Shown here one piece after another: positions 16,157 to 58,091 of a DNA stretch of 64,000 nt. This DNA comes from Nitrospirota bacterium (GTDB lineage: Bacteria > Nitrospirota > Thermodesulfovibrionia > Thermodesulfovibrionales > Dissulfurispiraceae): NCBI GenBank assembly GCA_963710375.1, contig CAVPZX010000005.1, positions 160,001 to 224,000 on the forward strand. The letters run 5' to 3'. The translations under genes were made by a program, and so were the position numbers. Numbering within the stretch: position 1 is the first letter of the stretch; each line of letters begins with the position of its first letter. The notes below the pieces were generated by a model. It was not told the DNA's origin. It did not search any database and worked only from the letters and a program-made list of their open reading frames with translations.

Positions 16157-16241
16157 GAAGGTGAGAAGATGGGAAGTTGCGAAGTTGAGCAAACCGGCCT
16201 TCGTAAGTCACACCTTCACACGTTCTCAACTTCTCATCTTC
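16157..16241. repeat. Octamer hairpin element between lptE and holA
   Basis: gaaggtga gaagatgg gaagttgc gaagttga ... caccttc acacgttc tcaacttc tcatcttc. Confidence 0.9.
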
Positions 16242-16250
16242 GGATATTGA

Positions 16251-17153
16251 ATGAGCATAAAGCAATTTCATCAGGAACTTTCCAAGGGGATGCCCTCCCC
16301 GGTGTATCTCTTATACTCATCAGAAGATTTTCTGCTCTATGAGGCTATCTCCGGAATAAAAGAGCAGTGTAGGGATACAGTTGGATTTAATTTTGACGTG
16401 TACGACATTAAGTCGCCTGACGATACGATTCCGGTAGAACAGATTGTGGATATCGTGAACACGATGCCGTTTATATCCGCGCGAAGGATAGTTGTTATCA
16501 ACAACATACAGAAACTTGCCAAAAAGGATGTGCAAAAGATCGAGGCTTACCTGCTTAATCCTGCTGATACTGCGCTTTTGGTAATGCTCCATACAGGTGC
16601 ATCGCCAAAGCTTTTTAGTGCAGCGGCATCAGGAAGCATTAAGACAATTGCTCTTACAGTCCAGGAAAAGGACCTTCACCTGTGGATAAAGGAGCAGGCC
16701 AAACAGAAGAAGGTGCGCCTTACCGACAGCGCGGTCGAATATCTTATTACTATGGCCGGGACTGACCTTGGCATGCTCTCTGCAGAAATAGAAAAGCTTG
16801 CATGTTTTATCAGCGACCGTGTCATTGACGTTGCCGACCTGAAGAGCATCATCTATTCTGGAGTTGAGTATACCGCCTTTGACCTTCTTGATGCGCTTAA
16901 GAGAAAAGATGCGAAGGAGGTATTCAGGATATTTGAGAACGTCACTAAAAATCAGGAACCTCAAATGCTGCTCGGCGCTCTGAATTATTATTATGGACGG
17001 CAAGGGTACGCTTACCAGAAAAAAGATGCATCCGGGCCGGTCCAGACAGTCCGGCTCTTGCATGAGGCGGACTTTGCGATAAAGTCATCGCACAAGTATG
17101 TTATCGAAGATCTGCTTGTTAAGCTGCTTAAAACTCCGAAGATGAGAAGTTGA
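16251..17153 (+). CDS. holA: DNA polymerase III delta subunit
   Basis: PVYLL..E.FL, T.PF....R.V, EIEKL; lptE-holA-rpsT context. Confidence 0.9.
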   Translation: MSIKQFHQELSKGMPSPVYLLYSSEDFLLYEAISGIKEQCRDTVGFNFDVYDIKSPDDTIPVEQIVDIVNTMPFISARRIVVINNIQKLAKKDVQKIEAYLLNPADTALLVMLHTGASPKLFSAAASGSIKTIALTVQEKDLHLWIKEQAKQKKVRLTDSAVEYLITMAGTDLGMLSAEIEKLACFISDRVIDVADLKSIIYSGVEYTAFDLLDALKRKDAKEVFRIFENVTKNQEPQMLLGALNYYYGRQGYAYQKKDASGPVQTVRLLHEADFAIKSSHKYVIEDLLVKLLKTPKMRS

Positions 17154-17205
17154 GAAGATGTGAAGGTGTGATCTCAATTTCCCAACCTCCCAACTTCTCA
17201 CCTTC
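17138..17205. repeat. Octamer hairpin element overlapping the holA and rpsT stop codons
   Basis: gaagatga gaagttga gaagatgt gaaggtgt / tcaatttc ccaacctc ccaacttc tcaccttc. Confidence 0.9.
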
Positions 17206-22419: not shown

Positions 22420-23580
<1,161 letters not shown>

Positions 23581-36318: not shown

Positions 36319-37231
36319 TTATAAGAGGGCCGGGGGTTCCGCCAGCATCCTTGCGTTATTGATAACAGGGGTTATTATTACCGTGGGAATCGGGTTCAAC
36401 TGGCTCGTGAAAGAACACCTGAAGGCTGCCGAGGGAATGAAACGCAAGACCGAAGCGATGCTGACGGCTGTCTCCACTTACAACACCCTCGTATACAGCA
36501 TACTTGCAGGTGTAACGGCTCCTGATCAGGTTGTTTTTATGAACGGGGGGAACCTTCTTGGCGTGAAAAGCATTCCCCTGAATAACGAAGGAGTCAGTGT
36601 TGGCGCTGATATAGAGATAAAGATCCAGGACAGTAACGGCATGATTTCTCTTGCCGGTCCCGACCTTTTGGCCCTGCAAAGGTTGTTGCGCAACGCAAAT
36701 CCTGACCAGGATCAGAGCGCAACAATCATAGACAGCTACCTTGATTGGATTAGCAGGGGCAACATGGTGCACATCAATGGTGCCAAGGAGGCTTATTACA
36801 GGGCCCAGGGTAAACCGTACACTGCCCGGAATTACCCGATGCAGTACAAAGAGGAGTTCGCATTTGTGAGAGGAATGGACCAGGAGCTCTACAAAAAAAT
36901 ATCTCCTTTTGTGACCTTGCTTCCCAATTCAGGCTTTAATCCCAACACAGCCCCTGATCCGGTTCTGGCAGCTTTTCTGGGTATCGACGAGGAAGCAGTG
37001 CAGAACCTTAAGGCATATATGAAGACGGCGCCGCTCACTTCCAACTCTACACTCTTTAATATTGTGCGAAGGACCATAGCCGGGGAAGGATTCGATTTCA
37101 ACCCTTCACGGTTCTGGGATATAACAATAAATGTTGGCAAGCCCGAACCTGTGTATTCTCTCAGGGCTGGAATCGACATAAGATGGAACGAAACATATCC
37201 ATACTCCGTCATTTATTGGGGAAAGGACTGA
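36311..37231 (+). CDS. gspK: Minor pseudopilin GspK
   Basis: I.D..G, LDW, GA.E.YY, V.GM, N.NTA...VL. Confidence 0.85.
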   Translation: MNNYKRAGGSASILALLITGVIITVGIGFNWLVKEHLKAAEGMKRKTEAMLTAVSTYNTLVYSILAGVTAPDQVVFMNGGNLLGVKSIPLNNEGVSVGADIEIKIQDSNGMISLAGPDLLALQRLLRNANPDQDQSATIIDSYLDWISRGNMVHINGAKEAYYRAQGKPYTARNYPMQYKEEFAFVRGMDQELYKKISPFVTLLPNSGFNPNTAPDPVLAAFLGIDEEAVQNLKAYMKTAPLTSNSTLFNIVRRTIAGEGFDFNPSRFWDITINVGKPEPVYSLRAGIDIRWNETYPYSVIYWGKD

Positions 37232-38547
37232 TGGAGGGTTGGATGTTTAGGAGATTGGAAGGTTGGAAGCTCGGCAATTTGGCAGCTCGAAAGCTCGGTG
37301 GTTTGGCTAACCCTCTAACCCGCAAGTTCTCCAATCTTCTAATTGGTTACTGGCATAAAGGGGGGGTGGAAATTTACCGGCTTTCCGCCCCAAAAAGTCA
37401 AAGGCTTTCCGGGGGCGCCGGGCCCGCGGAAAGCAAGATCACTCTGTTTGCATCCGGAGGTCTCGACACACTTAAACCTGTCAAAGCATTCGGCAAAATA
37501 GTATTGATTGTGGGGAGAGACCTTTTTCTCCACACAAGGAAAAAGTTTCCCCCGGCATCGTTAGATGATTTGAAGAAAGCTGTAAACCTTGAAATCGGCG
37601 AGTTGTTCCCACTGAAGAGTCCCTCCTTTTTCCTCAATGTTTTTGAGAGGACCGAAGCTTACACCCTGGCTGATATATGGGCGTGGGACAGTTCTGGATA
37701 TGACAACCTGAAGCGTGTGCTCCCCTTTACCTATGTATTGCCGGAAGACATGGCCTTTATATCAGGGGAACCCGAAATCAGTGTTTTGAGCGGCTCTGCC
37801 GGCGACGCCGGTGTCTCCCATTTGCTGGCTCATTCAAAAGAAGGATTTCTCGGCATGTCGTCATTCAGAGGCCGGGTCAGCCGGAGCCACATAGAGAAGC
37901 TTCTCAAGGCGATCAGCAGTCATGCGGAAGAGGTTAAGAGGGTGAACCTTTACGGGGGAGCAGAAGCTGTTACCGCTATTAATGACCTTGGATTCCCGGT
38001 CGTGAAAAAGGAGACCAGGGGGTATCCCGCCTGCCTTGAAAATTTGAGCAGGCTCGATCTTAAACAGTTCAGTGTCCGGACAGAACCGGCTTTTATGGAA
38101 TACATTGATGTCGGCATCAGGTCCGTAATATACCTTTTTGTTGCGTATGGCATATCCCTTATTGTTGCAGGCAGGCATTATGATGCTGCAATCAGTGAAG
38201 TGAAGATAAAGACTGCAAGGCTGACTACGAGCATGTCTGCCGTAATCGTGGGGCAGAAGAAAGATTACGAGGAGGCTGCGGACGAGATGAAGGAAAAGCT
38301 GAAGGGTTGGCGTCCGCCGTTGCCTGTAATGGAGGCGTTGGCCAAAAATCTGCCTGACAAGAGCTATGTGACAAGAATGGTACTTAATGAGACCACACTG
38401 GAGTTGACACTTGCATCGAATGACCCCCTGGCGGTTGTGAAAGCCGTGGGGAGAACTGACGGAGTAAAAACAGTGAAATTGAAGGGCTCGCCTTCGAAAA
38501 ATGATAAAGGGCTTTATACCTTCTATCTTACGGTGGAACTGAAATGA
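37231..38547 (+). CDS. GspL/PilN-like assembly protein
   Basis: Cytoplasmic domain, one TM, coiled coil, LP..SYV; operon order. Confidence 0.65.
   Translation: MEGWMFRRLEGWKLGNLAARKLGGLANPLTRKFSNLLIGYWHKGGVEIYRLSAPKSQRLSGGAGPAESKITLFASGGLDTLKPVKAFGKIVLIVGRDLFLHTRKKFPPASLDDLKKAVNLEIGELFPLKSPSFFLNVFERTEAYTLADIWAWDSSGYDNLKRVLPFTYVLPEDMAFISGEPEISVLSGSAGDAGVSHLLAHSKEGFLGMSSFRGRVSRSHIEKLLKAISSHAEEVKRVNLYGGAEAVTAINDLGFPVVKKETRGYPACLENLSRLDLKQFSVRTEPAFMEYIDVGIRSVIYLFVAYGISLIVAGRHYDAAISEVKIKTARLTTSMSAVIVGQKKDYEEAADEMKEKLKGWRPPLPVMEALAKNLPDKSYVTRMVLNETTLELTLASNDPLAVVKAVGRTDGVKTVKLKGSPSKNDKGLYTFYLTVELK
37233..37341. repeat. Degenerate octamer (GGAAGCTC/GGAAGGTT) arms at the 5' end of the gspL-like gene
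   Basis: ggagggtt ggatgttt aggagatt ggaaggtt ggaagctc ggcaattt ggcagctc gaaagctc ... aaccctct..ccaatcttct. Confidence 0.6.
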
Positions 38548-45230: not shown

Positions 45231-47141
45231 ATGTCTAAATCAAAAGAAAAATCAAAAGAAAACCACTCGACAGTAATGCGAAAGGAGATGGCCTCAGAGG
45301 GGACCGCAGACAGTATTGTCGTCCATGAATATCCTTCCGTCGTAGAGTGGTTTAAGACCGTTGCAACCAACATAACCAACAACTGGTTCATTATCGGACT
45401 GGCGATATTCGCGGTATTTGTTGCTTTCATGTTTTATTATCCATCGGTGGGTGGCGACGAAGACATTTGGTTTCATATCAGATATGGATATCACTTTGTC
45501 CATAACATGACATGGAAGATAAACCACGCACAGTTCAACTGGATCCCTTTTGAACCTAATTTCAAGTATGTGACCTGGATAGGAAGCTCCATACTTTATA
45601 TATTCTATGCTCTGATGTCGCATTACGGGCTCTATCTGCTCCAATACATAGTCATAGGCTCTATTGTGGGCTGCTTCCTTTATTTCCTTAAAAAAACAGC
45701 ATACCGCTTCGATATTACAAGTCTGCTGGCAATGCTGGCTGTCCTTCTGGTTTTGAACCTCAAATACCTCTATATCAAGCCGGATATGTTCAGCGGATTG
45801 TTGTTTACCGTTGCCTGCATGCTTTACTATAAGGTCAAGGAAACCGGAAACTGGAGACTGTTTTATGTCTATCCGCCGATGTTCCTCCTCTGGGTTAATA
45901 CTCATGGCGGCTTCATAGTGGGACTATTCTTTATAAGCGCCGCACTCGGATGCGAATTCGTTAATTCCTTCATATTCAGGAATGCGAGACTCGACAACAA
46001 AAGCCTTCTGCATTTTGCGTTAAACGTTGTCCTTAGCTATGCCGTTATCGGTATAAACCCTGAAGGCTATGGCTACTTTACAGGCATAATCAGCGATTTT
46101 TTCTCTCCGGGGATGAAAACGACAGAGGCAATCATAGCTGAATATGGCAGCATGTGGGGCACTCTTTTGCTTAAACCTGCAGGTTTCAGGTTTAAATTTG
46201 CAGCATTTTCAATGCTCGCTATGCTTGTAGTGTTTATCGGAATATGCATTTATCTTATCAAGAAGAAGAAATTCTTTGATATGCCGTCCGTCTTTCTTGT
46301 TGTCTTTTTCTATATCTTTGCAATGTCCATTGTTCGCGCATCCCAATATTATCCCCTTATCTGGTTCTTTGCCTTTTTTTACGTTTATAAGCGGTTCGAT
46401 GCCGTAAAGATCAAAGGCGTCTTCAACTTTATATCCCTGTTAATAATATTCATGTTGTGCTTTAGAATAGTCAATTTGGCGCTTGTTGATTATGACTCGA
46501 TTGCATGGTTTGGCACCAACTGGGAGGAAAGCTACCCTGTCAAGGAAGTGCAATACATAAAGAAGGCGAACCCTCCGGGCAATTTGTGGAATGATTACTT
46601 GACGGGAGGCTATCTCTTATGGGCACTGTATCCCAAATACAAGGTCTTCGTCGATCCGCGCTACGGCGGATACATGGCAAACTTTATGCCCACGGCCGAG
46701 GAGTATAAAGATGCTAAAGGACTGGAGGCGTATACAAAGAGGTTCCCCTTCAAGGTGGCCATCGTGGCTTATCATGAAACTCAGATTATCGAATGGCTTC
46801 TGAAAGCGGATTGGAGGATTGCCTTCCTGGACAAGAACGCCCTGGTAATTGTCAATAAGTCGGTGATCCCCGAGCTGTCGAAAGCTGCCCTGGAAGAGGA
46901 CGTCAGCACCAATAGATTTTTGAATGTCGATAACCCCAACATTCTCAGGACATTGTTTAATTTCTATGTAAACCTTGGTCCAAGTTTCGGAAGGGAGATT
47001 ATAGAAATATACCAGAGGAACGTCAGAACAATCTACAGGAACAGGGATTCCGATCTGAACAACATGCGGAATTTTCTTGAACAGAAAGAGGCCGAGATAG
47101 CTGCGCAGAAAGGCAAAGGCAAGACTGGACAAACAAAATGA
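45231..47141 (+). CDS. Polytopic membrane protein, GT-C-like
   Basis: D.WFH...G, LW.N.HGGF, GGYL.W, FVD.R. Confidence 0.65.
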   Translation: MSKSKEKSKENHSTVMRKEMASEGTADSIVVHEYPSVVEWFKTVATNITNNWFIIGLAIFAVFVAFMFYYPSVGGDEDIWFHIRYGYHFVHNMTWKINHAQFNWIPFEPNFKYVTWIGSSILYIFYALMSHYGLYLLQYIVIGSIVGCFLYFLKKTAYRFDITSLLAMLAVLLVLNLKYLYIKPDMFSGLLFTVACMLYYKVKETGNWRLFYVYPPMFLLWVNTHGGFIVGLFFISAALGCEFVNSFIFRNARLDNKSLLHFALNVVLSYAVIGINPEGYGYFTGIISDFFSPGMKTTEAIIAEYGSMWGTLLLKPAGFRFKFAAFSMLAMLVVFIGICIYLIKKKKFFDMPSVFLVVFFYIFAMSIVRASQYYPLIWFFAFFYVYKRFDAVKIKGVFNFISLLIIFMLCFRIVNLALVDYDSIAWFGTNWEESYPVKEVQYIKKANPPGNLWNDYLTGGYLLWALYPKYKVFVDPRYGGYMANFMPTAEEYKDAKGLEAYTKRFPFKVAIVAYHETQIIEWLLKADWRIAFLDKNALVIVNKSVIPELSKAALEEDVSTNRFLNVDNPNILRTLFNFYVNLGPSFGREIIEIYQRNVRTIYRNRDSDLNNMRNFLEQKEAEIAAQKGKGKTGQTK

Positions 47142-47914
47142 AGGTTGTTATTTTAGCAGGGGGGCTTGGCACACGTCTGAGCGAAGAGACTGATATAAAA
47201 CCCAAGCCGATGGTCGAGATAGGCGGAAAGCCTATCCTCTGGCATATCATGAAGATTTATTCTCACTATGGTTTCAATGATTTCATCATCTGCCTCGGCT
47301 ATAAAGGCTATGTCATAAAGGAATACTTCGCCAACTATTTCCTTCATCAGTCCGATGTTACTATAGATTTGAGCGTCAACAAGCTGGAGGTCCATAACTG
47401 TAAGGCAGAGCCCTGGAGGATTACCCTTATAGAGACAGGATTGAACACGAATACAGGAGGCAGGATAAAGAGAATAAAAGATTATGTCGGCGAAGAGACC
47501 TTTATGCTTACCTACGGAGATGGCGTTGCTGATGTAGATATAGGTGGACTCCTGGAGTTTCACAAATCTCACGACAAGGCAGCTACAATCACCTCAGTTC
47601 AGCCTACTGGCAGATACGGTGCATTGGAACTTGATGAAAAGAGTAGAGTGACAAATTTTCAGGAAAAACCGCAAGGCGATGGGGCGTGGGTAAACGGCGG
47701 CTTTTTTGTATTGGAGCCTGAGGTATTTGATTATATATCCGGGGATGAAATCATATGGGAAAGGGAACCGCTCGAATATTTAGCGAGTCACGGTCAGCTC
47801 GATGCATATAAACACCAGGGATTCTGGAAATGTATGGATACCCTTCGCGACAAGACAGAGTTGGAAACCCTCTGGAGTTCCCGAAACGCACCCTGGAAGA
47901 AATGGAACGACTAA
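47138..47914 (+). CDS. rfbF: Glucose-1-phosphate cytidylyltransferase
   Basis: LAGGLGTRLSEET..PKPM, TGGR, TYGDG, FW.CMDTLRD. Confidence 0.96.
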   Translation: MKVVILAGGLGTRLSEETDIKPKPMVEIGGKPILWHIMKIYSHYGFNDFIICLGYKGYVIKEYFANYFLHQSDVTIDLSVNKLEVHNCKAEPWRITLIETGLNTNTGGRIKRIKDYVGEETFMLTYGDGVADVDIGGLLEFHKSHDKAATITSVQPTGRYGALELDEKSRVTNFQEKPQGDGAWVNGGFFVLEPEVFDYISGDEIIWEREPLEYLASHGQLDAYKHQGFWKCMDTLRDKTELETLWSSRNAPWKKWND

Positions 47915-47918
47915 ATAT

Positions 47919-48014
47919 GAAGTTGAGAAATTGAGAAGATGTGAAGATGAGAAAAAGAAATGTAAGCCTGATTTGTTGTCGCGCACCTTCTCACCTTCTC
48001 AGCTTCCCATCTTC
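47919..48014. repeat. Octamer hairpin element directly upstream of the four-helix-bundle gene
   Basis: gaagttga gaaattga gaagatgt gaagatga ... gcaccttc tcaccttc tcagcttc ccatcttc. Confidence 0.92.
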
Positions 48015-48028
48015 GGATCGCCGAAGGT

Positions 48029-48433
48029 GTGATGGTGGGCAATAGTCAGAAAATAAAAAGTGTTAGGGATTTGGATGTTTATAAGATGGCTTTCAATGCG
48101 GCAATGGACATTTGGCAGATAACAAACGGTTTTCCCAAAGAAGAAAAATATTCTCTTGTAGATCAAATAAGGCGTTCTTCAAGATCTGTATGTTCAAATC
48201 TTGCAGAAGCGTGGCGAAAGAGGCGATATAAAGCCGTGTTCAAGAATAAGTTGACTGATGCTATGCAAGAGGCTTCTGAAACGCAGACATGGCTGGAGTT
48301 CAGTGTTGCTTGTAAATATGTTGATCAAAATAAATTTGATGACTTTGATCAAAAATATGAACATATATTAGCTATGTTGAATAATATGGACTTGAAAGCT
48401 GAATCCTTCTGCTTCTCAACTTCTGATAAATAA
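48029..48433 (+). CDS. Four helix bundle protein (23S rRNA IVP / TIGR02436-like)
   Basis: DL.VY, FP.EE.YSL.DQIRRSSRSV..N.AE.W, E..ET.TWL. Confidence 0.93.
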   Translation: MMVGNSQKIKSVRDLDVYKMAFNAAMDIWQITNGFPKEEKYSLVDQIRRSSRSVCSNLAEAWRKRRYKAVFKNKLTDAMQEASETQTWLEFSVACKYVDQNKFDDFDQKYEHILAMLNNMDLKAESFCFSTSDK

Positions 48434-49638
48434 TGTTTAGGGACGTATATAGAGGTAAGCAAGTATTAATCACTGGTCACACGGGATTCAAAGGCTCTTG
48501 GCTTGCCCTGTGGCTCAGAGAGTTAGGAGCGAATATAATCGGTTATTCCCTTGATCCACCTACAAACCCCAATCATTTTGATTTGCTAGCCTCTTCTCAG
48601 GTTCTCACCTTCTCATCTTCTCAACTTCCCAACTTCATCTCTATTTTCGGAGATATACGGGATGTAAAGAAGCTGAATCAGACCTTTCAGAACTATAAGC
48701 CTGATATAGTCTTCCACCTCGCTGCACAACCTCTCGTCAGGTATTCATATAAACATCCGCTCGATACATTTGAGACAAATGTGATAGGGACAATAAATGT
48801 TCTTGAAGCTTGCAGACAGACTGAATCAGTCAGGGCAGTAGTAAATATAACGAGCGACAAGTGCTATGAAAACAAAGAATGGGTATGGGGCTATCGTGAG
48901 AGTGACCCGTTTGGCGGTTACGACCCCTACAGCGCATCAAAAAGTTGCGCAGAGCTTGTGACTAACTGTTACAGGCGCTCTTTCTTTATAACTGAAACTG
49001 AGAAGTTGAGAAGGTGTGAAGGTGAGAGTAAAGCCGAAGGACTCACAACTTCTCAACTTCTCAACTTCACAACTTCAGTCCTTTTAGCCAGCGCAAGAGC
49101 GGGCAATGTCATAGGCGGCGGAGATTGGGCAGCGGACAGATTGATTCCCGACATTATGAGGGCGGTCAGCCGGAATAAGAAGGTTGTTATCAGAAATCCC
49201 AAGTCAACCCGTCCCTGGCAGCATGTGCTGGAGCCGTTGTCAGGTTATCTGGCGCTTGGGCAGAAGCTCTTGGAAGGGAAATCGGAATTTGCCGATGGGT
49301 GGAATTTTGGGCCTGATGATGAAAGCAACATATGTGTTGAAGAAGTTGCAGAAAAGATGACCAGCTTCTGGCATAAAATTGGTTACCAACGCAAACCATT
49401 TAAACATCCAAGCCTCCGGCCATCCGACCCTCATGAGGCTGGTCTGTTAAAACTTGACTGCTCGAAAGCCCATTCAAGGCTTGAGTGGAAACCTGTCTGG
49501 GATATTAAGAAAACGCTTGTAATGACCGCTCAATGGTATAAAGAGTTTTACGAACGTGATGGAATAATGAGTCAGAAGGATTTGGATGAGTATATTCTGA
49601 ATGCGAAGGAAAAAGGTTTGCGTTGGGCAGTTGATTGA
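48433..49638 (+). CDS. rfbG: CDP-glucose 4,6-dehydratase with in-frame repeat inserts
   Basis: TGHTGFKGSWL, HLAAQPLV, YSASK, RAGNVIGGGDW, RPWQHVLEP. Confidence 0.96.
   Translation: MFRDVYRGKQVLITGHTGFKGSWLALWLRELGANIIGYSLDPPTNPNHFDLLASSQVLTFSSSQLPNFISIFGDIRDVKKLNQTFQNYKPDIVFHLAAQPLVRYSYKHPLDTFETNVIGTINVLEACRQTESVRAVVNITSDKCYENKEWVWGYRESDPFGGYDPYSASKSCAELVTNCYRRSFFITETEKLRRCEGESKAEGLTTSQLLNFTTSVLLASARAGNVIGGGDWAADRLIPDIMRAVSRNKKVVIRNPKSTRPWQHVLEPLSGYLALGQKLLEGKSEFADGWNFGPDDESNICVEEVAEKMTSFWHKIGYQRKPFKHPSLRPSDPHEAGLLKLDCSKAHSRLEWKPVWDIKKTLVMTAQWYKEFYERDGIMSQKDLDEYILNAKEKGLRWAVD
48591..48636. repeat. Single octamer arm in frame in rfbG (SSQVLTFSSSQLPNF)
   Basis: tcaggttc tcaccttc tcatcttc tcaacttc ccaacttc. 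Confidence 0.9.
48991..49079. repeat. Octamer hairpin in frame in rfbG (TETEKLRRCEGE..TTSQLLNFTTS)
   Basis: actgaaactgagaagttgagaaggtgtgaaggtgagagt / actcacaacttctcaacttctcaacttcacaacttcagt. Confidence 0.95.
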
Positions 49639-49662
49639 GCAGGTTTGTCGGAAGACTCCTAC

Positions 49663-51108
49663 ATGGAAAGAAGAGAACAACTAAAACAGGAAATATTTGA
49701 GAGAATAAGGGCATTTTATCAGCTTGTGCATGAGACATCCCACAATGCAGAGTTTGTTGCAGGCAAAAGTCGCATAAACTATGCAGGCCGGGTATTTGAT
49801 GAAGAAGAGATGATTAATCTTGTCGATAGTTCCCTTGATTTCTGGCTTACAACAGGCAAATATGCCGAAAGGTTTGAAAAAGAATTTGCAGATTTCCTTG
49901 GAGTGAAATATTGCTCTCTTGTCAATTCAGGGTCTTCAGCTAATCTCCTCGCGTTTATGGCGTTAACATCTCCGAAGCTCGGTGATAGAAGCATTCAGAG
50001 GGGCAATGAGGTCATAACAGTAGCAGCAGGTTTCCCAACCACAGTCGCTCCCATCATTCAGTATGGCGCTGTGCCGGTATTTGTTGATGTTACGCTGCCG
50101 GCATACAACATAGATTGTTCGCAGCTCGAAAATGCACTATCAGATAAAACAAAGGCTGTAATGGTCGCGCATACCCTCGGCAATCCCTTCGATATCCGGA
50201 CGGTAAAAACGTTCTGCGATAAACATAATCTCTGGCTCATCGAGGATAACTGCGACGCTCTTGGCAGTAAATACCGAAGGTGGGAAGTTGAGAAGGTGAG
50301 AAGTTGTGAACGTGAGAAGGCAGGCCCAACTTCACAACTTCACAACTTCCCACCTTCGGAGCTTTACGGCTACACCGGGACTTTCGGGCATATTGGAACG
50401 TCGAGTTTTTATCCGCCCCATCATATGACTATGGGAGAAGGCGGCGCTGTTTATACGAACGATATTCAGCTCAAAGGGATAATAGATTCTTTCCGTGACT
50501 GGGGCAGGGACTGCTGGTGTGTGTCGGGTAAAGACGATACATGCAAAAAACGCTTTAAATGGCAGCTCGGAGAACTTCCTTACGGATATGATCACAAATA
50601 TATCTATTCCCATTTCGGGTATAACTTAAAGGTTACCGACATGCAGGCGGCTATAGGCTGTGCGCAACTCGAAAAGCTGCCCTTTTTTATTGAAGCAAGA
50701 AAGAAAAACTGGAGTCTTCTGAGGGACGGGCTGCATGACCTTTCAGATAAGTTTATCCTGCCTGAGCCTACTGCGAATTCAGAGCCATCCTGGTTTGGGT
50801 TCCTGTTGACTGTGAAGGAGAGCGCGGGTTTTACGAGGGATGAGATAGTGAATTATCTTGAATCAAATAACATCCAGACACGTATGCTCTTTGCAGGAAA
50901 TATACTGAAGCATCCCTGCTTCGATGAAATGAGAAAAACCGGCCACGGTTTCCGTGTCATTAGGGACTTACCGGTAACTGACCGCATAATGCGCGACAGT
51001 TTTTGGGTTGGGGTCTATCCGGGGATGAAAGAAGAGGCGATCGAATATGTCATGCAAAAGATAAAAGAGTATGCAAGACATGAACAATCGATTCCCGGTT
51101 TAGGGTAA
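49663..51108 (+). CDS. rfbH: CDP-4-keto-6-deoxyglucose 3-dehydrase (RfbH/DdhC) with an in-frame repeat insert
   Basis: NSGSSANL, EDNCDALG, SFYPPHH.T.GEGG (His in place of the PLP Lys), RDCWC..G.D.TC. Confidence 0.95.
   Translation: MERREQLKQEIFERIRAFYQLVHETSHNAEFVAGKSRINYAGRVFDEEEMINLVDSSLDFWLTTGKYAERFEKEFADFLGVKYCSLVNSGSSANLLAFMALTSPKLGDRSIQRGNEVITVAAGFPTTVAPIIQYGAVPVFVDVTLPAYNIDCSQLENALSDKTKAVMVAHTLGNPFDIRTVKTFCDKHNLWLIEDNCDALGSKYRRWEVEKVRSCEREKAGPTSQLHNFPPSELYGYTGTFGHIGTSSFYPPHHMTMGEGGAVYTNDIQLKGIIDSFRDWGRDCWCVSGKDDTCKKRFKWQLGELPYGYDHKYIYSHFGYNLKVTDMQAAIGCAQLEKLPFFIEARKKNWSLLRDGLHDLSDKFILPEPTANSEPSWFGFLLTVKESAGFTRDEIVNYLESNNIQTRMLFAGNILKHPCFDEMRKTGHGFRVIRDLPVTDRIMRDSFWVGVYPGMKEEAIEYVMQKIKEYARHEQSIPGLG
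50274..50359. repeat. Octamer hairpin in frame in rfbH
   Basis: ccgaaggtgggaagttg... / ...caacttcccaccttcgg; outer 17 bp perfectly complementary. Confidence 0.95.
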
Positions 51109-53199
51109 TATTTCATTCAGCAATTGCCGGGTTTTTTGGTCATCCGGCTTTATCTTTAACCTTGTCATCAATTGAATGCGCGCATTTTCTATAATATCCG
51201 GTCTCAGGCGCAGGGCAGTTTCGAATTCATTTTTGGCCTTGTCAAGTCTGTCGCTGTCGTAATAAACAAGGCCAAGATTAAAATGTGCTTCTGCGTAATC
51301 GGGCGCAAGTTTAATGGCAATCAGATACTGCTCAATAGATTTGTCAGGCATGTTGATGGCATGATAGGCAATGCCGAGATTATTATGTGCCTCAGCATAA
51401 TCAGGCTTGAGTTTAATGGCAATGATATATTGCTCAATAGCATTGTCAAGCATGTTGCGACTTTTATAAAAATTACCAAGTCTGGCATGTGCATTTGCGT
51501 AACGGGGGAATCTTTTAACTGTATCTTCCCACATTTTTTTGCTGTCTCCATATAGATTGTTCTGCAAATGAGCTGCGACTGACAGAATGCTTATAATAAG
51601 GGCGAGCGTCACTAGTATCACATTGCCGGCTTTCTGTGAACGAATTTTTTCTTTCAGCAGAAATACCCCCGTAACTGTGCAAATGATTACCCCGACCGAG
51701 GGCAGATACATTCGATACGTTTCAATAAGCCTCGGCGTAGGTATAATGCTCGATTCAACTGAAAGGGTGATAAAGAACCACAATATACCGAAACCCATCA
51801 AACGAAAAGCAGGACTAAGGGCAGAGGACTGAGAGGCGAGGACTGAGGACTGAGGACTGAGAGACGAGGACTGAGAGGCGAGGACTGAGGACTGAGGACT
51901 GAGAGACGAGGACTGAGAGGCGAGGACTGAGTTTTCGTCTTCGCGCTTTGCCCTCAGTCCTTTGCCCTTAGTCCTCAGTCCTGGACCCTCTTCCTTTGGC
52001 CCTTTCCACTCAGTCCTCAGTCCTTCGCCCTCAGTCCTCAGTCCTCGCCTCTCTTTTTTCTGCACTAAATAAATCCCCAGTCCAAATAGCGCTGAGAGAA
52101 ACACAAATGAAACGGATACCTGCGGTTGAAAAAAAGACTTAAACACAGGGTACTCATAATTGAGTTCCAGGTTTGCCGGGAAAAACAGCATTCGCAGGTA
52201 AGTGACAATGACCCTGAACTGGGTGAAAAAATACTCTCCCCGCGAGTAGTCCCAGGTGAATCCGGCCATATATGAGCCCGGGTCAATAAGGCTGGGATTA
52301 ATCAGTTGTGTGCCGCGTACTTCGGTCACTGTCGGCATGCTCATAATAGTCAGAGGTATGATGCAAAGTGAAAGCAATAATGGAGCAAGAACGAGCATCC
52401 TCTTCTTAATGCCGCCATTAAAAAAACAAAACTCGTACAACGTTATCACAAAGGGCAGAGTAAACGCATTCTCCTTTGTTTTCATTGCCAGGACCGCTGA
52501 AAGAAGGGATATGGCGTACATAGTCCGGCGCCGGGCTTTATGATGGTCAGGAGCCTCCAATCTGAACTTAATATATGCTGTGAGGGAAAGGAGATAGAAA
52601 AAAGCGGCGAGAGAGGCATAACGTTGCATGACATACGTAACCGCCGCTGTCTGCAGCGGGTGGACGGCAAACAGAGCGGCGGAGAAGAAGGCAATCACTG
52701 CCGGATTGCCTGAACTTGAGAAATTGAGAACTTGTGAAGGTGTGCCCTTTGCCCTATGCCCTATGCCTTTCATGTAAGGTGTTCTGAATGTCAATAGAAC
52801 AAGCAAATAAACCAGGATTGTATTGGCGATATGAATGGCAATATTGACAATATGGTAGCCGGTCACCGATAAACCGTTTATACGGTAGTTGAGCGCAAAG
52901 GTGAGATGCGAGATGTAGCGGGATATGAAAAAACGGTAATTCTCAAACCCTTGAGCTGTTGAGGGGTGAAGGAAATAATTAAGGTCCTTGATAATAGGCT
53001 CGTTAACAATATGCATCTCTTCATCCCACTGAAATGGGACATTCAAGGCATTGGAGTAAATGATCAGAATAAGCAGAGACAGACAAGCGATATGCACAAA
53101 GGAGTTATATGTCAATGACAGCGGACTGAACGATGCATGTGCAGGGGGAAGGTCATTGTGACGGATCAGCTTATTTGTTTTCTTACCCTTGTTTTTCAT
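51100..53199 (-). CDS. TMTC-like GT-C + TPR protein, paralog 2
   Basis: Same motifs as 26326-28050; TPRs. Confidence 0.75.
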   Translation of the reverse strand: MKNKGKKTNKLIRHNDLPPAHASFSPLSLTYNSFVHIACLSLLILIIYSNALNVPFQWDEEMHIVNEPIIKDLNYFLHPSTAQGFENYRFFISRYISHLTFALNYRINGLSVTGYHIVNIAIHIANTILVYLLVLLTFRTPYMKGIGHRAKGTPSQVLNFSSSGNPAVIAFFSAALFAVHPLQTAAVTYVMQRYASLAAFFYLLSLTAYIKFRLEAPDHHKARRRTMYAISLLSAVLAMKTKENAFTLPFVITLYEFCFFNGGIKKRMLVLAPLLLSLCIIPLTIMSMPTVTEVRGTQLINPSLIDPGSYMAGFTWDYSRGEYFFTQFRVIVTYLRMLFFPANLELNYEYPVFKSFFQPQVSVSFVFLSALFGLGIYLVQKKERRGLRTEGEGLRTEWKGPKEEGPGLRTKGKGLRAKREDENSVLASQSSSLSPQSSVLASQSSSLSPQSSVLASQSSALSPAFRLMGFGILWFFITLSVESSIIPTPRLIETYRMYLPSVGVIICTVTGVFLLKEKIRSQKAGNVILVTLALIISILSVAAHLQNNLYGDSKKMWEDTVKRFPRYANAHARLGNFYKSRNMLDNAIEQYIIAIKLKPDYAEAHNNLGIAYHAINMPDKSIEQYLIAIKLAPDYAEAHFNLGLVYYDSDRLDKAKNEFETALRLRPDIIENARIQLMTRLKIKPDDQKTRQLLNEILP
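51811..52053. repeat. Heptamer (GGACTGA) hairpin in frame in paralog 2
   Basis: (ggactga)n ... (tcagtcc)n; encodes GLRTE.. and SPQSSVL.. Confidence 0.95.
52712..52767. repeat. Composite octamer + heptamer insert in frame in paralog 2
   Basis: gaacttga gaaattga gaacttgt gaaggtgt followed by gcccttt gccctat gccctat gcc. Confidence 0.85.
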
Positions 53200-54285
53200 A
53201 AAAGATCCCTGACCGTTTCAGCGTGAGATTGCATTCAATAACTGACGGGCTATCTGGTCATCAGGCTTTATCTTTAATCTCGCTATCAACTCTCTGCGCG
53301 CATTTTCCAGTTGTCCCATATTATAGTAGAGGACTCCGAGATTAAAATGAGCTGTTTCATTATCCGGTTGGAGGCGTATGACAGTTTGTAATTCATTCAC
53401 GGCCTTGTCAGGCATGTTGAGGGACTGATAAAGAATAGCGAGATTATTGTGCGCTTCCACATAGTTGGGCTTCTCCTGTATTGCGGCCAGATAGTGTTCA
53501 GTTGCCTTGCCAGACATGCCCTGATCTTTATAGACATTGGCTAGATTATAATGCGCCTCAGGGTAATCAGGCTTCAGATTAATGGCAGTCTGAAACTCTT
53601 TTATAGCCTTGTCAGGCATGTTGAGGGCCTGATAAACAGCTCCCAGATTATTATACGCTTCTATAAAATCGGGTTTTAGATTAATGGCAGTCAGAAACTC
53701 TTTTATAGCCTTGTCAGGCATTTTGAGGGCCTGATCATAGAGGACGCCAAGATTGTAATGCGCCTTCCAGTGCCCAGGGGCAAGACTTATTGCAGTCAGA
53801 TATTCCTTTAAAGCAGCATCGGGCATACCGAGGTCTTGATAGCTGTTGCCGAGACCGAGATGCGCTTCAGTGGAATCAGGATTAATTTTCAAGGCAAGCT
53901 GAAACTGTTCCGCAGCCTTGTCCGACATGCGATGGTGTCGGTAGGCCAACCCAAGATTATAATGCACTCTTTCTTTTGCAGGGAATTTTAACGCGTCTTC
54001 TTTCCATAACTTGACTTCGTCTCTCCACATATCATTGCGCATATATGTAGCAACTGACAGTACGCCTGCAGCAAGTGCAAGAATGGTTACTATCACCCTA
54101 CCGGCTTTTGGGGAACGCAGATTTTCTTTCAGCAGAAATGCACCGGTAACAACGCAAACAAATATCCCCATTGAAGGCAGATACACGCGGTGTTCAAAAA
54201 TCACATCGGCGATGGGTATGATGCTCGACTCCACTGAGAGAGTGATGAAAAACCACAATATCCCGAAACCCATCAACTTAAAGGC

Positions 54286-54556
54286 AGGACTGAGGGCAGA
54301 GGACTGAGAGGCGAGGACTGAGGACTGAGGACTGAGTGCCAAGGACTGAGAGACGAGGGCAGAGGACTGAGGACTGAGAGACAAGGACTGAGAGGCGAGG
54401 ACTGAGGACTGAGTGTCAAGGACTGAGGACTGAGCAGAGAGGACTGAGTTTTGGTCTTCGATCTTTGCACTCAATCCTCTGCCCTCAGTCCTCAGTCCTG
54501 GATCCTCTTTCCTTTGGCCCTTTCCACTCAGTCCTCAGTCCTCTGTCCTCAGTCCT
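54286..54556. repeat. Heptamer (GGACTGA) hairpin in paralog 3
   Basis: (ggactga)n ... (tcagtcc)n. Confidence 0.95.
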
Positions 54557-55036
54557 TGTTTTTTTCTCGCTCCACAGCACTAAATAAATGCCCAGCCCGA
54601 AAAGCGCGGCAAGAAACATAAACGAAAAGATCACCTGGGGGTAAAAGAAAGATCTATAAATAGGATAGTCATAGTCGACATTCTGTCCTGCGGGGAAAAA
54701 CAGCAGCCGCATATATCTCACAATTACTGAGAACTCCGTCATCAGGTATTGCCATGGCGTCGTCCTTGTCTGCACTGTTATCTTGCTCGCATCCGACAAT
54801 ACTTTCCCCAACGGCTGGCTCACATTCAGCAAGCTCAAAGGAATGATGACCACTGTTGCCAGCAGCGGCAAGGCCCATAGAGCCCTCCTGAGCAGATTGC
54901 CTCTGCCGAAGAACACCAGTTCGTACAACACAACAATAAACGGCAGTGTAAAGGCTATCTCCTTTGTCATCATCGCAAGCACAGCCGAAACAATAGAAAT
55001 CCCATAATAAAAATATGGCATGTATTTTCGTTTTTC

Positions 55037-55310
55037 CCGGCTACCGGCCACCGGCCCCTGGCCACTGTCTTTTGCTTCTTGCCCTCCGCCCTCAGTCCTC
55101 AGTCCTTGGTCCTCTGCCCTCAGTCCTCGCCTCTCAGTCCTCAGTCCTTGGTCCTCTGCCCTCAGTCCTCTGCTCTCAGTCCTCAGTCCTTGGTCCTCCG
55201 CCCTCAGTCCTCGCCTCTCAGTCCTCAGTCCTTGGTCCTCTGCCCTCAGTCCTCGCCTCTCAGTCCTCAGTCCTCTGCCCTCAGTCCTTGTTTTATTACC
55301 CTCAGTCCTT
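55037..55310. repeat. Heptamer array with a 42-bp higher-order unit, in frame in paralog 3
   Basis: ctcagtcctcagtccttggtcctctgccctcagtcctcgcct repeated about 4 times (GLRTERRGLRAEDQ), next to ccggcta ccggcca ccggccc ctggcca. Confidence 0.95.
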
Positions 55311-55454
55311 GACTTTATATATGTCACTAATGAAAGGAGATAAAAAAATGAAGCGAGGGACGCAAGCCTCTGCACTATATAAGTGACCGCCTGAGTTTGG
55401 ATAGGATGCACCGCAAACAAGACAGCAGAGAAGAAGGCGATCAGCCCGGAATCG

Positions 55455-55520
55455 CTGAGTACTAAAGACTGAGGACTTAGGACTGAGGGCATAGGACTGA
55501 GGACTGAGGACTGAGGACTC
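55455..55520. repeat. Heptamer arm in frame in paralog 3
   Basis: Encodes SPQSSVLSPMPSVLSPQSLVLS. Confidence 0.9.
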
Positions 55521-55841
55521 ATGGCCGGTGTTCTGAATGTAAATAGCACAAATAAATAAACCAGCATGGAGTTAGCAATATGAATTGCAAGATTGACTAT
55601 ATGGTAGCCGGTCACATTTGAACCACCCAAGCTGTAGTTCAGGGAAAATGTCAGATACCCGATGAATCGTCTAGAAAAATGTTCATACCCTGTGGAACTG
55701 AACAGAAAATTTCCGATATGACGCACTATACTGTTATCAATTATGTTGAATTCATCGTCAAATACAAACGGCGCATGAAAAGTATTAGAATAACAAATCA
55801 GGCATAATAGAGCTATAATGCCGGCATGTAAGAGCTGGGAA

Positions 55842-58091
55842 TTATGATTTTGATTTGGAAATTTCATTCAGCAACTGTCGGACATTTTGGTCGTTAGGTT
55901 TTATCCTTAATATCGTTGTCAATTCCCTGCGTGCCTTTTCTTTCTGTCCCCTCTCATAATAGAGTTCTCCAAGATTGGAATGCGCCTCTATATAATCGGG
56001 CTTCAGTTTAATGGCAATCAGATAATATTCTATGGCCTTGTCGGGCATTTTCTGGTCTTCATAGATTACGCCAAGATTATTATACGCCTCTGCGCAGTCA
56101 GGCTTTAGTTTAACAGCAATCAGATACTCTTTTAAAGCCCTTCCACGCATGCTGCGGGACTGATAAAACACGCCACCCAGATCAAGATGGGCCTCCACAT
56201 AATCAGGCCTCAGTTCTACGGCAGTCATAAACTCTTTTATAGCTTTCTCGGGCATTTTACGATCTTTATATATATTGCCAAGGTTATAATGTGCCTCAGG
56301 TAAGTCCGGATTAAGCTTGGAAGCAATCATAAACTGCTCAATCGCCTTGTCAGGCATATTACGGTCTCGGTAGATAACCCCGAGGTTATTGTATTCCTCT
56401 GCAGAATCAGGTTTCAGCCCAATGGCAATCCGGTACTGCTCTATGGCTTCATCGAACTTTTTTTGAGACTGATAGAGGCGACCAAGATTATAATGCGCCC
56501 TTTCCTTGGCAGGTGATTTTGCCACGACGTCTTTCCACAGTCTTATACTGTCTCCCCACACTTCGTTCCGCAGATACGTAGCGACCGACAAAACTCCTAT
56601 AGCAAGGGCCAGCATCAAGATTATTACCCTGCCGTACCTGGGCGAACGCACCTTTTCTATTAACAAAAAGGCCCCTGTAACTGTACAAATAATCATTCCT
56701 ATTGAAGGCAGATAAGCACGGTGCTCGTAAATTACATCAGTGATAGGTATTATGCTTGACTCGACCGAAAGAGTGATAAAAAACCACAATATACCAAAAC
56801 CCATCAAACGAAAAGCAGGACTGAGAGGCGAGGACTGAGAGGCGAGGACTGAGGACTGAGCAGTTAGGACTGAGTTTTGGTCTTCGCGCTTTGCACTCAG
56901 TCCTTTGACCTCAGTCCTCAGTCCTGGACCCTCTTCCTTTGGCCCTTTCCACTCAGTCCTCAGTCCTCTGTCCTCAGTCCTTGCTTTATTACCCTCAGTC
57001 CTCAGTCCTTGGTCCTTCGTCTTCAGCACTAAATAAATGCCCAGCCCGAAAAGCGTCACCAGAAACAGAAGCGACAGCATCACCTGGGGATAGAAGAAAG
57101 ATCTATACACCGGATAGTCATAATCGAGGTTCTGCCCTGCAGGGAAAAACAGCAGCCGCACATACGTCACGATCACAGTGAACTCTGTTATCAGATACTG
57201 CCACCGCGTCATGCTTGTTCCCGCCGCAGTCACCTGATTCACATCCGACAACACCTTCCCCAACTGTTGGCCCACATTCAGCATGCTCAGTGGAATGATG
57301 ACCACTGTTGCCAGCAGCGGTAAGGCCCATAGCGTCCTCTTAATCAGATTGCCTCTGCCGAAAAACACCAACTCGTAAATCACAATGATAAACGGCAGCG
57401 TAAAGGCTATCTCCTTTGTCTTCATCGCCAGCACCGCAGAGATAATAGAGATGCTGTAGAAGAAGAGATACCGGAAGTTGCCCTTTGCCCCGCCTGAGGC
57501 GGGCCCTCTGCCCTCTGCTATTAGCCTGAACCGAACATAAAAGTACAACGAGGCAACATAAAACAAAGCTGCCAAAGACGCAAGCCGCTGCACTATGTAT
57601 GTCACTGCCTCGGTTTGGATAGGATGCACCACAAATAACGCGGCAGAAAAAAAGGCAATCAGATTAGAATTTCTGAGGACCGAGGACTGAGGACTGAGAG
57701 GCAAGGACTGAGGACTGAGAGACGAGGACTGAGGGTTCATTAACGGAGTCCTGAATGTAAGCACCACCAATCCATAAACCAGAAGCGCACAGGCCAGATG
57801 TATGGCAAGATTTACTACATGGTAGCCGGTCACATCAAGGCCGCCCAAGCGGTAGTTCAGGGCGAATGTCAGAAACCCTATAAAACGGCGGGGATTATTT
57901 TCATATCCTTTGGAGCTGAAGATAAAATTGCCGATATCATGGACTACCCTGTTATCCCTTATAGAGTATTCGTCGTCAAATATAAACGGCACATGGAAAC
58001 TGTTGGAATAGACGATTATTCCTGCCAAAATTATCAGGAAGGGATAAAAAAAATGATGGGCCGTTGCTGAATTCTTTGCCTTCCGAAACAT
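55842..58091 (-). CDS. TMTC-like GT-C + TPR protein, paralog 4
   Basis: FDD, YH..N..IH, HP.QTEAV.Y..QR, EHR.YLP, multiple TPRs. Confidence 0.78.
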   Translation of the reverse strand: MFRKAKNSATAHHFFYPFLIILAGIIVYSNSFHVPFIFDDEYSIRDNRVVHDIGNFIFSSKGYENNPRRFIGFLTFALNYRLGGLDVTGYHVVNLAIHLACALLVYGLVVLTFRTPLMNPQSSSLSPQSLPLSPQSSVLRNSNLIAFFSAALFVVHPIQTEAVTYIVQRLASLAALFYVASLYFYVRFRLIAEGRGPASGGAKGNFRYLFFYSISIISAVLAMKTKEIAFTLPFIIVIYELVFFGRGNLIKRTLWALPLLATVVIIPLSMLNVGQQLGKVLSDVNQVTAAGTSMTRWQYLITEFTVIVTYVRLLFFPAGQNLDYDYPVYRSFFYPQVMLSLLFLVTLFGLGIYLVLKTKDQGLRTEGNKARTEDRGLRTEWKGPKEEGPGLRTEVKGLSAKREDQNSVLTAQSSVLASQSSPLSPAFRLMGFGILWFFITLSVESSIIPITDVIYEHRAYLPSIGMIICTVTGAFLLIEKVRSPRYGRVIILMLALAIGVLSVATYLRNEVWGDSIRLWKDVVAKSPAKERAHYNLGRLYQSQKKFDEAIEQYRIAIGLKPDSAEEYNNLGVIYRDRNMPDKAIEQFMIASKLNPDLPEAHYNLGNIYKDRKMPEKAIKEFMTAVELRPDYVEAHLDLGGVFYQSRSMRGRALKEYLIAVKLKPDCAEAYNNLGVIYEDQKMPDKAIEYYLIAIKLKPDYIEAHSNLGELYYERGQKEKARRELTTILRIKPNDQNVRQLLNEISKSKS
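56817..57030. repeat. Heptamer (GGACTGA) hairpin in frame in paralog 4
   Basis: Same site and loop as 51811-52053. Confidence 0.93.
57673..57734. repeat. Heptamer arm in frame in paralog 4
   Basis: Encodes PQSSSLSPQSLPLSPQSSVL. Confidence 0.9.

What the first reader, a model, noticed from the sequence alone, without database searches (positions are those of the whole stretch)
48591..49432. Up to three separate repeat inserts in one rfbG gene
Seen: a solo pyrimidine arm (48591-48636), a full hairpin (48991-49079) just before ASARAGNVIGGGDW, and a degenerate octamer run catccaag cctccggc catccgac (49405-49432) resembling the inverse of the 37233 family. All preserve the frame. Inference: repeated local targeting next to the four-helix-bundle gene.
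Basis: partly seen in the sequence, partly recalled or inferred. Interest (0 to 1): 0.7.

Follow-up and report, generated by a model that had tools for sequence, protein, structure and literature searches.

The report
Repeat-rewritten loops in sugar enzyme
Three loops of an otherwise ordinary sugar-modifying enzyme gene hold in-frame runs of 8-base DNA repeats, related bacteria hold different repeat words at the same three loops, and a small neighbouring gene of unknown function likely determines which word gets written in.

Summary
All three inserts in rfbG (CDP-glucose 4,6-dehydratase) are real: +12, +20 and +6 residues over the modal loop length among 126 homologs. Sites 1 and 2 carry the 8-base word flanking the adjacent four-helix-bundle (PF05635) gene. 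Relatives fill the same loops with different words, sometimes two words in one register, while the enzyme core stays under purifying selection (dN/dS 0.07-0.095). The word is abundant in only 4 of 317 related genomes, the 4 with the close ortholog of that gene, and all 5 of its in-gene copies here lie within 26 kb of it. Local targeting is only partly supported: site 3 and several relatives' sites carry other words, and these loops hold nearly all internal insertions seen in the family. Best reading (inferred): cassette-specified words overwrite existing arrays, and selection keeps in-frame events; no catalytic enzyme was found. This scan found the cassette-plus-repeat system before on other DNA (49 findings, at least 44 genomes). 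Rickettsia palindromic elements and the Coxiella S23p intervening sequence are published precedents.

The parts
47138..47914 (+). rfbF, glucose-1-phosphate cytidylyltransferase (upstream gene)
   Evidence: TIGR02623, 449 bits over cut-off 300
47919..48014 (+). Intergenic hairpin of the GAAGNTGN word family (word A): purine arm 47919-47953, pyrimidine arm 47984-48014
   Evidence: TRF; fold z -4.7
48021..48038 (+). Short purine arm of word A at the start of the four-helix-bundle gene
   Evidence: Read by eye; relatives have a full purine arm here
48029..48433 (+). Four-helix-bundle gene (TIGR02436 / PF05635, Avd-like); its end overlaps the rfbG start
   Evidence: TIGR02436 103.7 bits, cut-off 24; Avd model 27.4 bits, below its cut-off 80; PF05635; 78-88% identical orthologs in the same slot in G001, G002, G003
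48405..48426 (+). Short, worn pyrimidine arm of word A inside the last codons of the four-helix-bundle gene
   Evidence: Read by eye; a full arm of about 4 units in G001, G002, G003
48433..49638 (+). rfbG, CDP-glucose 4,6-dehydratase, 401 aa, uninterrupted
   Evidence: TIGR02622 489 bits over cut-off 278; model matches 1rkx at Z 40.9, rmsd 2.4 over 337 residues; core dN/dS 0.07-0.095
48589..48636 (+). Site 1: solo pyrimidine arm of word A, codons 53-68, net +12 aa
48991..49079 (+). Site 2: full hairpin of word A, within codons 186-216, net +20 aa
   Evidence: (z -7.0)
49391..49430 (+). Site 3: decayed solo pyrimidine arm of the TCCAACCC family (word B), within codons 319-333, net +6 aa
   Evidence: rank 2 of 6.38 million positions; intact B arms at this site in L135, L112, L116
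50274..50359 (+). In-frame word-A hairpin in the next gene, rfbH (49645-51108); the same loop holds other alleles in relatives
   Evidence: fold z -9.5; 34 aa here against 5 aa in L137 and L114, B/F words in G003
37231..37337 (+).
   Evidence: fold z only -1.3

Best explanation
Three loops of a conserved CDP-glucose 4,6-dehydratase hold in-frame tandem 8-base repeats whose word differs between related genomes, and they are likely rewritten from time to time with the word of whichever four-helix-bundle cassette is active in the lineage. SHOWN: the inserts; their frame; the word differences at fixed sites; two-word arrays in one register; each four-helix-bundle gene flanked by its own word; the word's abundance tracking the cassette across genomes; enrichment near the cassette; purifying selection on the enzyme core. 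INFERRED: (1) the cassette (purine arm, small gene, pyrimidine arm) specifies the word in trans, and more often nearby; (2) new words land in arrays that already exist, arm by arm and in register, as by short-patch conversion from a single-stranded copy that the Avd-like protein would hold, with host repair or replication enzymes doing the chemistry; (3) events that shift the frame or hit the core are purged, leaving three tolerant loops; (4) an arm decays once its word is no longer active, as at site 3; (5) the inserts are translated as flexible, near-neutral loops.
For: Word states differ at fixed sites: in the 18-protein clade around the window's RfbG, sites 1, 2, 3 need 9, 10 and 7 changes. 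Two sites of one gene share a word in 20 of 37 pairs against 10.8 expected (p 0.002). In-register chimeras: L116 site 1 has D words in front of a B arm and a D-word cassette next door; G003 site 1 has a fresh perfect array behind a worn one; G003 site 2 has F words in the purine arm and B words in the pyrimidine arm, and G003 shows the same F/B mix in rfbH and tgt. All 6 four-helix-bundle genes of this genome have their own flanking word; protein clades track word classes in a tree of 43 rows. The word-A pattern gives 46, 52, 34 and 35 hits in G000, G001, G002, G003, 1-3 hits in 13 genomes and none in 300; those four are the only ones of 317 with the 78-100% ortholog, and rpoB rejects them as one clade (p-AU 1.9e-12). 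The same turnover is seen at a Tgt loop and both holA flanks. Core dN/dS 0.07-0.095 against 6 relatives; catalytic motifs are invariant in alignment A1.
Against: No catalytic enzyme was found: no reverse transcriptase in a 98.8% complete genome, and no detected array beside the single Y1 transposase. Word B is abundant in G003 (45 hits), yet none of its 4 four-helix-bundle genes over the cut-off is flanked by B. Change counts rest on a quick tree with many open forks and cannot separate rewriting from recombination: the same site-1 peptide recurs in non-sister proteins, the site-1 tract differs silently from G009 at 2 of 15 codons against 52% elsewhere, and rfbG is far more diverged from G003 than rpoB is (0.48 against 0.21). 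The co-occurrence rests on 4 related genomes, and the cassette-less neighbour G008 is 74% complete and lacks this whole region. Protein and word are physically linked, so their co-variation does not show that the protein sets the word. Low model confidence is not confined to the inserts (also 144-162 and 227-235).
Confidence: 0.45

Rival explanations
1. Independent insertions of whole MITE-like hairpins into empty loops, followed by imprecise loss and by recombination among rfbG alleles; the same loops recur only because selection tolerates nothing else, and no arm is overwritten.
For: Internal insertions of 4 or more residues in 126 homologs fall at these three loops plus one other spot in 2 proteins. 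An unrelated heptamer family fills site 1 in 10 and site 3 in 2 distant homologs. Some site-2 loops are shorter than the mode (4, 6, 7, 7 aa), like excision scars. Shared alleles and the low-divergence tract point to recombination.
Against: Two-word arrays keep one 8-base register, and single arms change word while the partner arm does not. By eye, no target duplication flanks site 2. The two arms of site 2 pair with several mismatches.
Confidence: 0.27
2. The four-helix-bundle gene is a passenger: a host process makes and spreads the arrays, the cassette is one more array pair that captured a gene, and closeness to rfbG reflects a tolerant, horizontally exchanged surface-polysaccharide region.
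For: All repeat families are denser in this region (22 of 217 loci within 50 kb; heptamer patterns overlap, so 217 double-counts). GGACTGA arrays cluster about 55 kb from their cassette. Two of the six cassettes have no same-word locus within 50 kb. Word B has no cassette in G003.
Against: Word A is enriched near its cassette beyond the general density (p 0.0006 at 35 kb, 0.018 at 10 kb; other A loci have at most 2 A neighbours in 35 kb), and genome-wide abundance follows the cassette in 4 of 4 against 0 of 313 genomes.
Confidence: 0.15
3. The arrays are kept for an RNA-level role in the rfb operon (pairing, RNase III cleavage, translation control), as for the S23p intervening sequence, and the peptides are incidental.
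For: Site 2 and the rfbH insert fold strongly (z -7.0, -9.5). Silent sites in site 1 are conserved against G009 (p 0.002, tract chosen after seeing it). The Coxiella IVS stem is cut by RNase III (PMC4990558, passages).
Against: Sites are often solo arms or empty in close relatives. The site-1 arm pairs with the upstream purine arm no better (28 of 32) than with five other purine-orientation arms; G002 has different words at the two places and G009 has no upstream arm. Every DNA-level allele printed reads in frame, which removal from the RNA would not require.
Confidence: 0.08
4. Local slippage in Pro/Ser-rich loops made the repeats in place, with no element involved.
For: Words A, B, C, D and F are a few substitutions apart when written in one register (seen).
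Against: An 8-base period is not codon-sized; site 2 has two complementary arms; the words match genome-wide families (48 A arms in this genome, 0 in a shuffle) and lineage-specific cassettes.
Confidence: 0.05

Closest known systems
Rickettsia palindromic elements (RPEs); PMC3767692, passages seen, which cites Ogata et al. for the original description
   Same: Palindromic repeats inside pre-existing ORFs without destroying the frame, in solvent-exposed regions; for RPE-4, -6 and -7, orthologs carry different repeat groups at or near the same place, and the authors weigh hot spots against common origin.
   Different: RPEs are 100-150 bp elements; here the arms are tandem 8-base words, solo arms are common, words change in register, and a small partner gene tracks the word. 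No sequence comparison with RPEs was run.
23S rRNA intervening sequence with S23p ORF, Coxiella burnetii; PMC4990558, passages seen
   Same: A gene of the S23p/PF05635 kind between terminal inverted repeats, with tandem heptamers of variable number before its start.
   Different: Here the cassette sits between two operon genes, not in rRNA, uses 8-base words, and gene-less arms lie in frame in neighbouring proteins. RNase III excision was not tested.
GGGAATC heptamer repeats of Xanthomonas and GGGGA(C/T)T of Nostoc; PMC4692102, passages seen
   Same: Dispersed arrays with a preference for four units, near gene ends, some as inverted pairs, a minority intragenic (11% and 7% in the two xanthomonads).
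   Different: G-quadruplex-type words; the passages seen name no partner gene and no word replacement at fixed protein loops.
TAACTGA repeats of marine Beggiatoaceae; PMC4679880, passages seen
   Same: Heptamer arrays, mostly intergenic; those inside ORFs are mostly in the stop-free orientation.
   Different: Almost all direct repeats (1 inverted of 170 sets); 'four helix' and 'S23' do not occur in its main text.
Diversity-generating retroelement accessory protein Avd; PMC10053308, passages seen
   Same: PF05635 resembles Avd in sequence and structure; the neighbour gene hits the Avd model weakly (27.4 bits).
   Different: No reverse transcriptase in this genome; the variation is word replacement, not adenine mutagenesis.

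Membership tests
CDP-glucose 4,6-dehydratase (RfbG, TIGR02622) | Score over the curated cut-off, rfbF-rfbG-rfbH context, NAD-binding and catalytic motifs, fold | tested here: met
   489 bits over 278; motif residues invariant in A1; Z 40.9, rmsd 2.4, 337 aligned to 1rkx. Activity not assayed.
Four-helix-bundle / 23S-IVS protein (TIGR02436, PF05635) | Score over the curated cut-off | tested here: met
   103.7 bits over 24; 115 bits over 33.8
ORF-bearing 23S rRNA intervening sequence | S23p-type ORF between inverted arms with tandem short words | tested here: met
   Full arms in G001, G002, G003; worn 3' arm in the window
ORF-bearing 23S rRNA intervening sequence | Location inside the 23S rRNA gene | tested here: not met
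   Lies between rfbF and rfbG
ORF-bearing 23S rRNA intervening sequence | Excision from the RNA by RNase III | not testable with these tools
   Needs transcript-end mapping or an in vitro assay
Rickettsia/Wolbachia palindromic elements (works like) | Repeat lies in frame inside a conserved gene and is absent from orthologs | tested here: met
Rickettsia/Wolbachia palindromic elements (works like) | Encoded peptide lies at the protein surface | tested here: inconclusive
   Inserts fall in gaps against 1wvg (10, 21 and 6 residues) and in low-confidence segments of the model, but other segments are low too; solvent exposure was not computed
Rickettsia/Wolbachia palindromic elements (membership) | Homology to the 100-150 bp RPE families | not tested
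   No RPE sequences were compared; the tandem-word anatomy differs
Diversity-generating retroelement | Reverse transcriptase in the system | tested here: not met
   PF00078: 0 matches in the 98.8% complete genome; 3 of 14 control genomes ring
REP/REPIN with RAYT (Y1) transposase (features recalled) | Y1 transposase flanked by the repeats | tested here: not met
   One PF01797 match; no detected 7/8-mer array within 10 kb, nearest family locus about 15 kb away
MITE (features recalled) | Fixed element with terminal inverted repeats and target-site duplication | tested here: inconclusive
   Terminal inverted words present at site 2; no duplication seen by eye; native codons are replaced and no close empty allele was available

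The most novel reading that the evidence does not exclude
Four-helix-bundle (PF05635) cassettes are word-specific repeat writers without a reverse transcriptase: each protein clade specifies a 6-8-base word and installs it in existing arrays, arm by arm and preferentially near its own gene, so that fixed protein loops are rewritten again and again and keep a layered record of which cassettes the lineage has carried. That would give a function to a large orphan family and a source for the unexplained 7-8-base repeats of bacteria.
Probability: 0.3. Interest if true: 0.85.

Novelty: new variant of a known kind. Interest (0 to 1): 0.55.

Why it matters
It is a compact natural test bed for an open question, the origin of tandem 7-8-base repeat arrays in bacteria and the function of PF05635 proteins. 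One gene with three marked loops, a known cassette next door and relatives with other words gives concrete substrates for an assay of word-specific writing. It also shows repeat DNA replacing loop peptides in enzymes under strong purifying selection. The enzyme itself is ordinary, and the cassette-plus-repeat system has been noted many times in this scan.

Tried and rejected
Long-range pairing of the solo site-1 arm with the purine arm upstream of the four-helix-bundle gene: 28 of 32 complementary, equalled by five other purine-orientation arms, and not conserved in G002 or G009; rejected. A plain regular expression found no intact word-B array at site 3 and only 2 weak hits in the genome against 0, 0, 1 in shuffles; the trained matrix was needed. 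The genome-contig scan returned 80 loci at 46-57% identity, none close, and they were not used further. The metagenome pattern scan gave 6 loci. GxxExxY gene (TIGR04256): none in the genome. Reverse transcriptase: none. No RNA holder listed among 12 runs, so translation and RNA processing stay open. Contigs of 4 runs showed no indel allele at the three sites; contigs drop rare variants. The Minerva preprint (10.64898/2026.09.22.753630, passages) does not mention four-helix or Avd proteins. Ten paper searches listed no paper on word replacement at fixed protein loops tied to PF05635 cassettes; subscription journals are mostly outside the library and no supplements were read. No paper on the 1rkx or 1wvg structures was opened (listing only). 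No complex was predicted.

Full report
Setting. The finding lies in rfbG (48433-49638), a CDP-glucose 4,6-dehydratase (TIGR02622, 489 bits), between a four-helix-bundle gene (TIGR02436) preceded by rfbF, and rfbH. Names on close homologs (Nitrospirae bacterium, Thermodesulfovibrionales) suggest a Nitrospirota host; the genome has 3.19 Mb in 9 contigs and is 98.8% complete. Word labels A-F and H7 below are my own.

Observation. Site 1 is a solo pyrimidine arm of period 8 (48593-48636; no fold). Site 2 is a hairpin at exactly 48991-49079 (z -7.0). Both use word A (GAAGNTGN on the purine strand), which has 48 arms in 25 loci in the genome and 0 in one shuffle. Site 3 escapes TRF, but a matrix built from 29 units of relatives' TCCAACCC-type arrays (word B) ranks it 2nd of 6,383,850 positions for three units and 2nd among loci for five units; the 37233 arm ranks 1st for four and five units, and 16 of 17 bases match between them. 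I compared 126 proteins: the window's, 119 of the 120 hits (the self fragment P0008 dropped) and 6 from loci. Five could not be parsed at each site, and one site-1 label (P0023) was set by hand. Modal repeat-free lengths are 7, 11 and 9 residues against 19, 31 and 15 here. A contig of run X3 spans the gene with one other letter and no gap; contigs of X5 and X6 bridge the sites in pieces.

The same loops, other words. Repeat-derived peptides (score 15 bits or more) occur at site 1 in 34 of 121, site 2 in 31 of 121 and site 3 in 19 of 121 proteins. In the 18-protein clade around the window's enzyme (SH-aLRT 95, quick tree with the inserts cut out) site 1 shows A 5, B 4, C 4, D 2, none 3, and the three sites need 9, 10 and 7 changes of a possible 13, 12 and 8 (maxima are my arithmetic). 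Two sites of one gene share a word more often than chance (20 of 37 pairs, 10.8 expected, p 0.002; kin are not independent). Distant homologs carry an unrelated heptamer at site 1 (10) and site 3 (2). Apart from one spot in 2 proteins, these loops hold all internal insertions of 4 or more residues, so tolerance explains the positions. DNA shows layered arrays: D words in register before a B arm in L116, a fresh array behind a worn one at G003 site 1, and an F purine arm facing a B pyrimidine arm at G003 site 2. The pattern is not special to rfbG: a loop of RfbH, a loop of Tgt in six genomes and both flanks of holA in five genomes show the same turnover.

The enzyme. Core dN/dS against six relatives is 0.07-0.095 with dS 1.1-1.9, and the NAD-binding and catalytic residues are invariant in 37 aligned proteins. 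The model (mean pLDDT 76) matches 1rkx at Z 40.9 (Foldseek). The inserts fall in gaps against 1wvg and in segments under pLDDT 50, but two other segments are as low, so the surface position is likely, not shown. Every DNA-level allele printed reads in frame, which favours translation; these loci were found by protein search, which favours intact genes.

The neighbour gene. The genome has six four-helix-bundle genes over the cut-off, each flanked by its own word; the one before rfbG is the only word-A cassette. G001, G002 and G003 have its ortholog (78-88%) in the same slot with full arms. In a tree of 43 rows, protein clades track word classes (quick tree, several long branches). Across 317 genomes of the order, a word-A pattern gives 46, 52, 34 and 35 overlapping hits in G000, G001, G002 and G003, 1-3 hits in 13 genomes and none in 300; those four are the only ones with the close ortholog, and 19 others have more distant homologs, most with other words. 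rpoB rejects the four as one clade, but the intervening G008 is 74% complete and lacks holA and tgt; G005 (94% complete, Tgt 90% identical) lacks both cassette and word. Locally, 8 of 21 repeat loci within 35 kb are word A (p 0.0006; 4 of 10 within 10 kb, p 0.018), and all 5 word-A loci deep inside ORFs of 150 aa or more lie within 26 kb.

Against a simple local model. Site 3 is word B, which has no intact array here (0 hits against 45 in G003). G002 site 1 and G003 site 2 carry non-cassette words. G009 keeps a 45-of-48 identical site-1 arm with no cassette and no fresh A array. Two of six cassettes have no same-word locus within 50 kb. None of G003's four cassettes is flanked by word B. The rfb locus looks exchanged: silent differences from G003 are 0.48 in rfbG and 0.21 in rpoB, and site 1 differs from G009 at only 2 of 15 silent codons. 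Recombination may therefore account for part of the change counts, though each distinct word at a site still needs its own origin.

Mechanism. I commit, at 0.45, to cassette-specified overwriting of existing arrays, filtered by selection. The inserts, word differences, chimeras, co-occurrence and enrichment are shown; word specification by the protein, conversion chemistry and translation are inferred. There is no reverse transcriptase, no GxxExxY gene and no array at the one Y1 transposase. The idea that the protein holds a single-stranded copy rests on its likeness to Avd (PMC10053308, passages) and on recalled knowledge of Avd. Rivals: whole-element insertion plus recombination (0.27), passenger gene (0.15), RNA-level role (0.08), local slippage (0.05).

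Known systems. It works like Rickettsia palindromic elements, for which different repeat groups at one orthologous spot have been reported (PMC3767692, passages), and its cassette resembles the Coxiella S23p intervening sequence, which has inverted termini and tandem heptamers (PMC4990558, passages). Similar arrays are described in Xanthomonas and Nostoc (PMC4692102, passages) and Beggiatoaceae (PMC4679880, passages). It is not a DGR, not a REP/RAYT system and not an rRNA IVS by the features tested. Ten searches listed no paper on word replacement at fixed loops tied to these cassettes; no supplements were read. Earlier notes of this scan describe the cassette-plus-repeat system in at least 44 genomes, hairpins in this genome and clade-word tracking; a look-up for word turnover at one loop found none. 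These notes are leads, not support.

Verdict. Observation confirmed, interpretation partly supported. New variant of a known kind; interest 0.55.

Noticed in passing
window 22998-23029 (tgt, 22420-23565, - strand); L205-L211: A Tgt loop holds a solo word-A arm here, an A hairpin in G002, an F/B hairpin in G003, a CACAGAG-type array in G007 and short worn versions in G005 and G009.
   Followed up: partly
window 50274-50359 (rfbH): In-frame word-A hairpin (34 aa against 5 aa in L137 and L114); G003 has B/F words, G001 and G002 other A alleles at the same loop.
   Followed up: partly
window 16157-16241 and 17138-17205 (holA flanks); L201-L204: The same two intergenic spots carry different word families in G002, G003, G007 and G001.
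   Followed up: partly
window 51100-58091 (- strand): Large membrane/TPR genes carry long in-frame GGACTGA heptamer arrays (Ser-rich peptides); the split at 53218-55867 may come from an array. Their cognate four-helix-bundle gene lies about 55 kb away at C5:269654.
   Followed up: no
window 52712-52767: A word-A arm abuts a GCANAGN heptamer arm inside the TPR gene, a two-family hybrid.
   Followed up: no
P0031 and P0042, after RfbG residue 147: An 18-residue insert beginning PPSPPFNKGG at a fourth spot, apparently another palindromic repeat family.
   Followed up: no
window 48589-48663 against L135: About 75 nt around site 1 are far more alike at silent sites than the rest of rfbG (2 of 15 against 52%); a recombination tract or a DNA-level constraint.
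   Followed up: partly
G003 genome: Word B is abundant (45 hits) without a B-flanked PF05635 gene among those found; its partner, if any, is unknown.
   Followed up: no
G000:C2:735002-735053: A second worn word-B hairpin outside the window.
   Followed up: no
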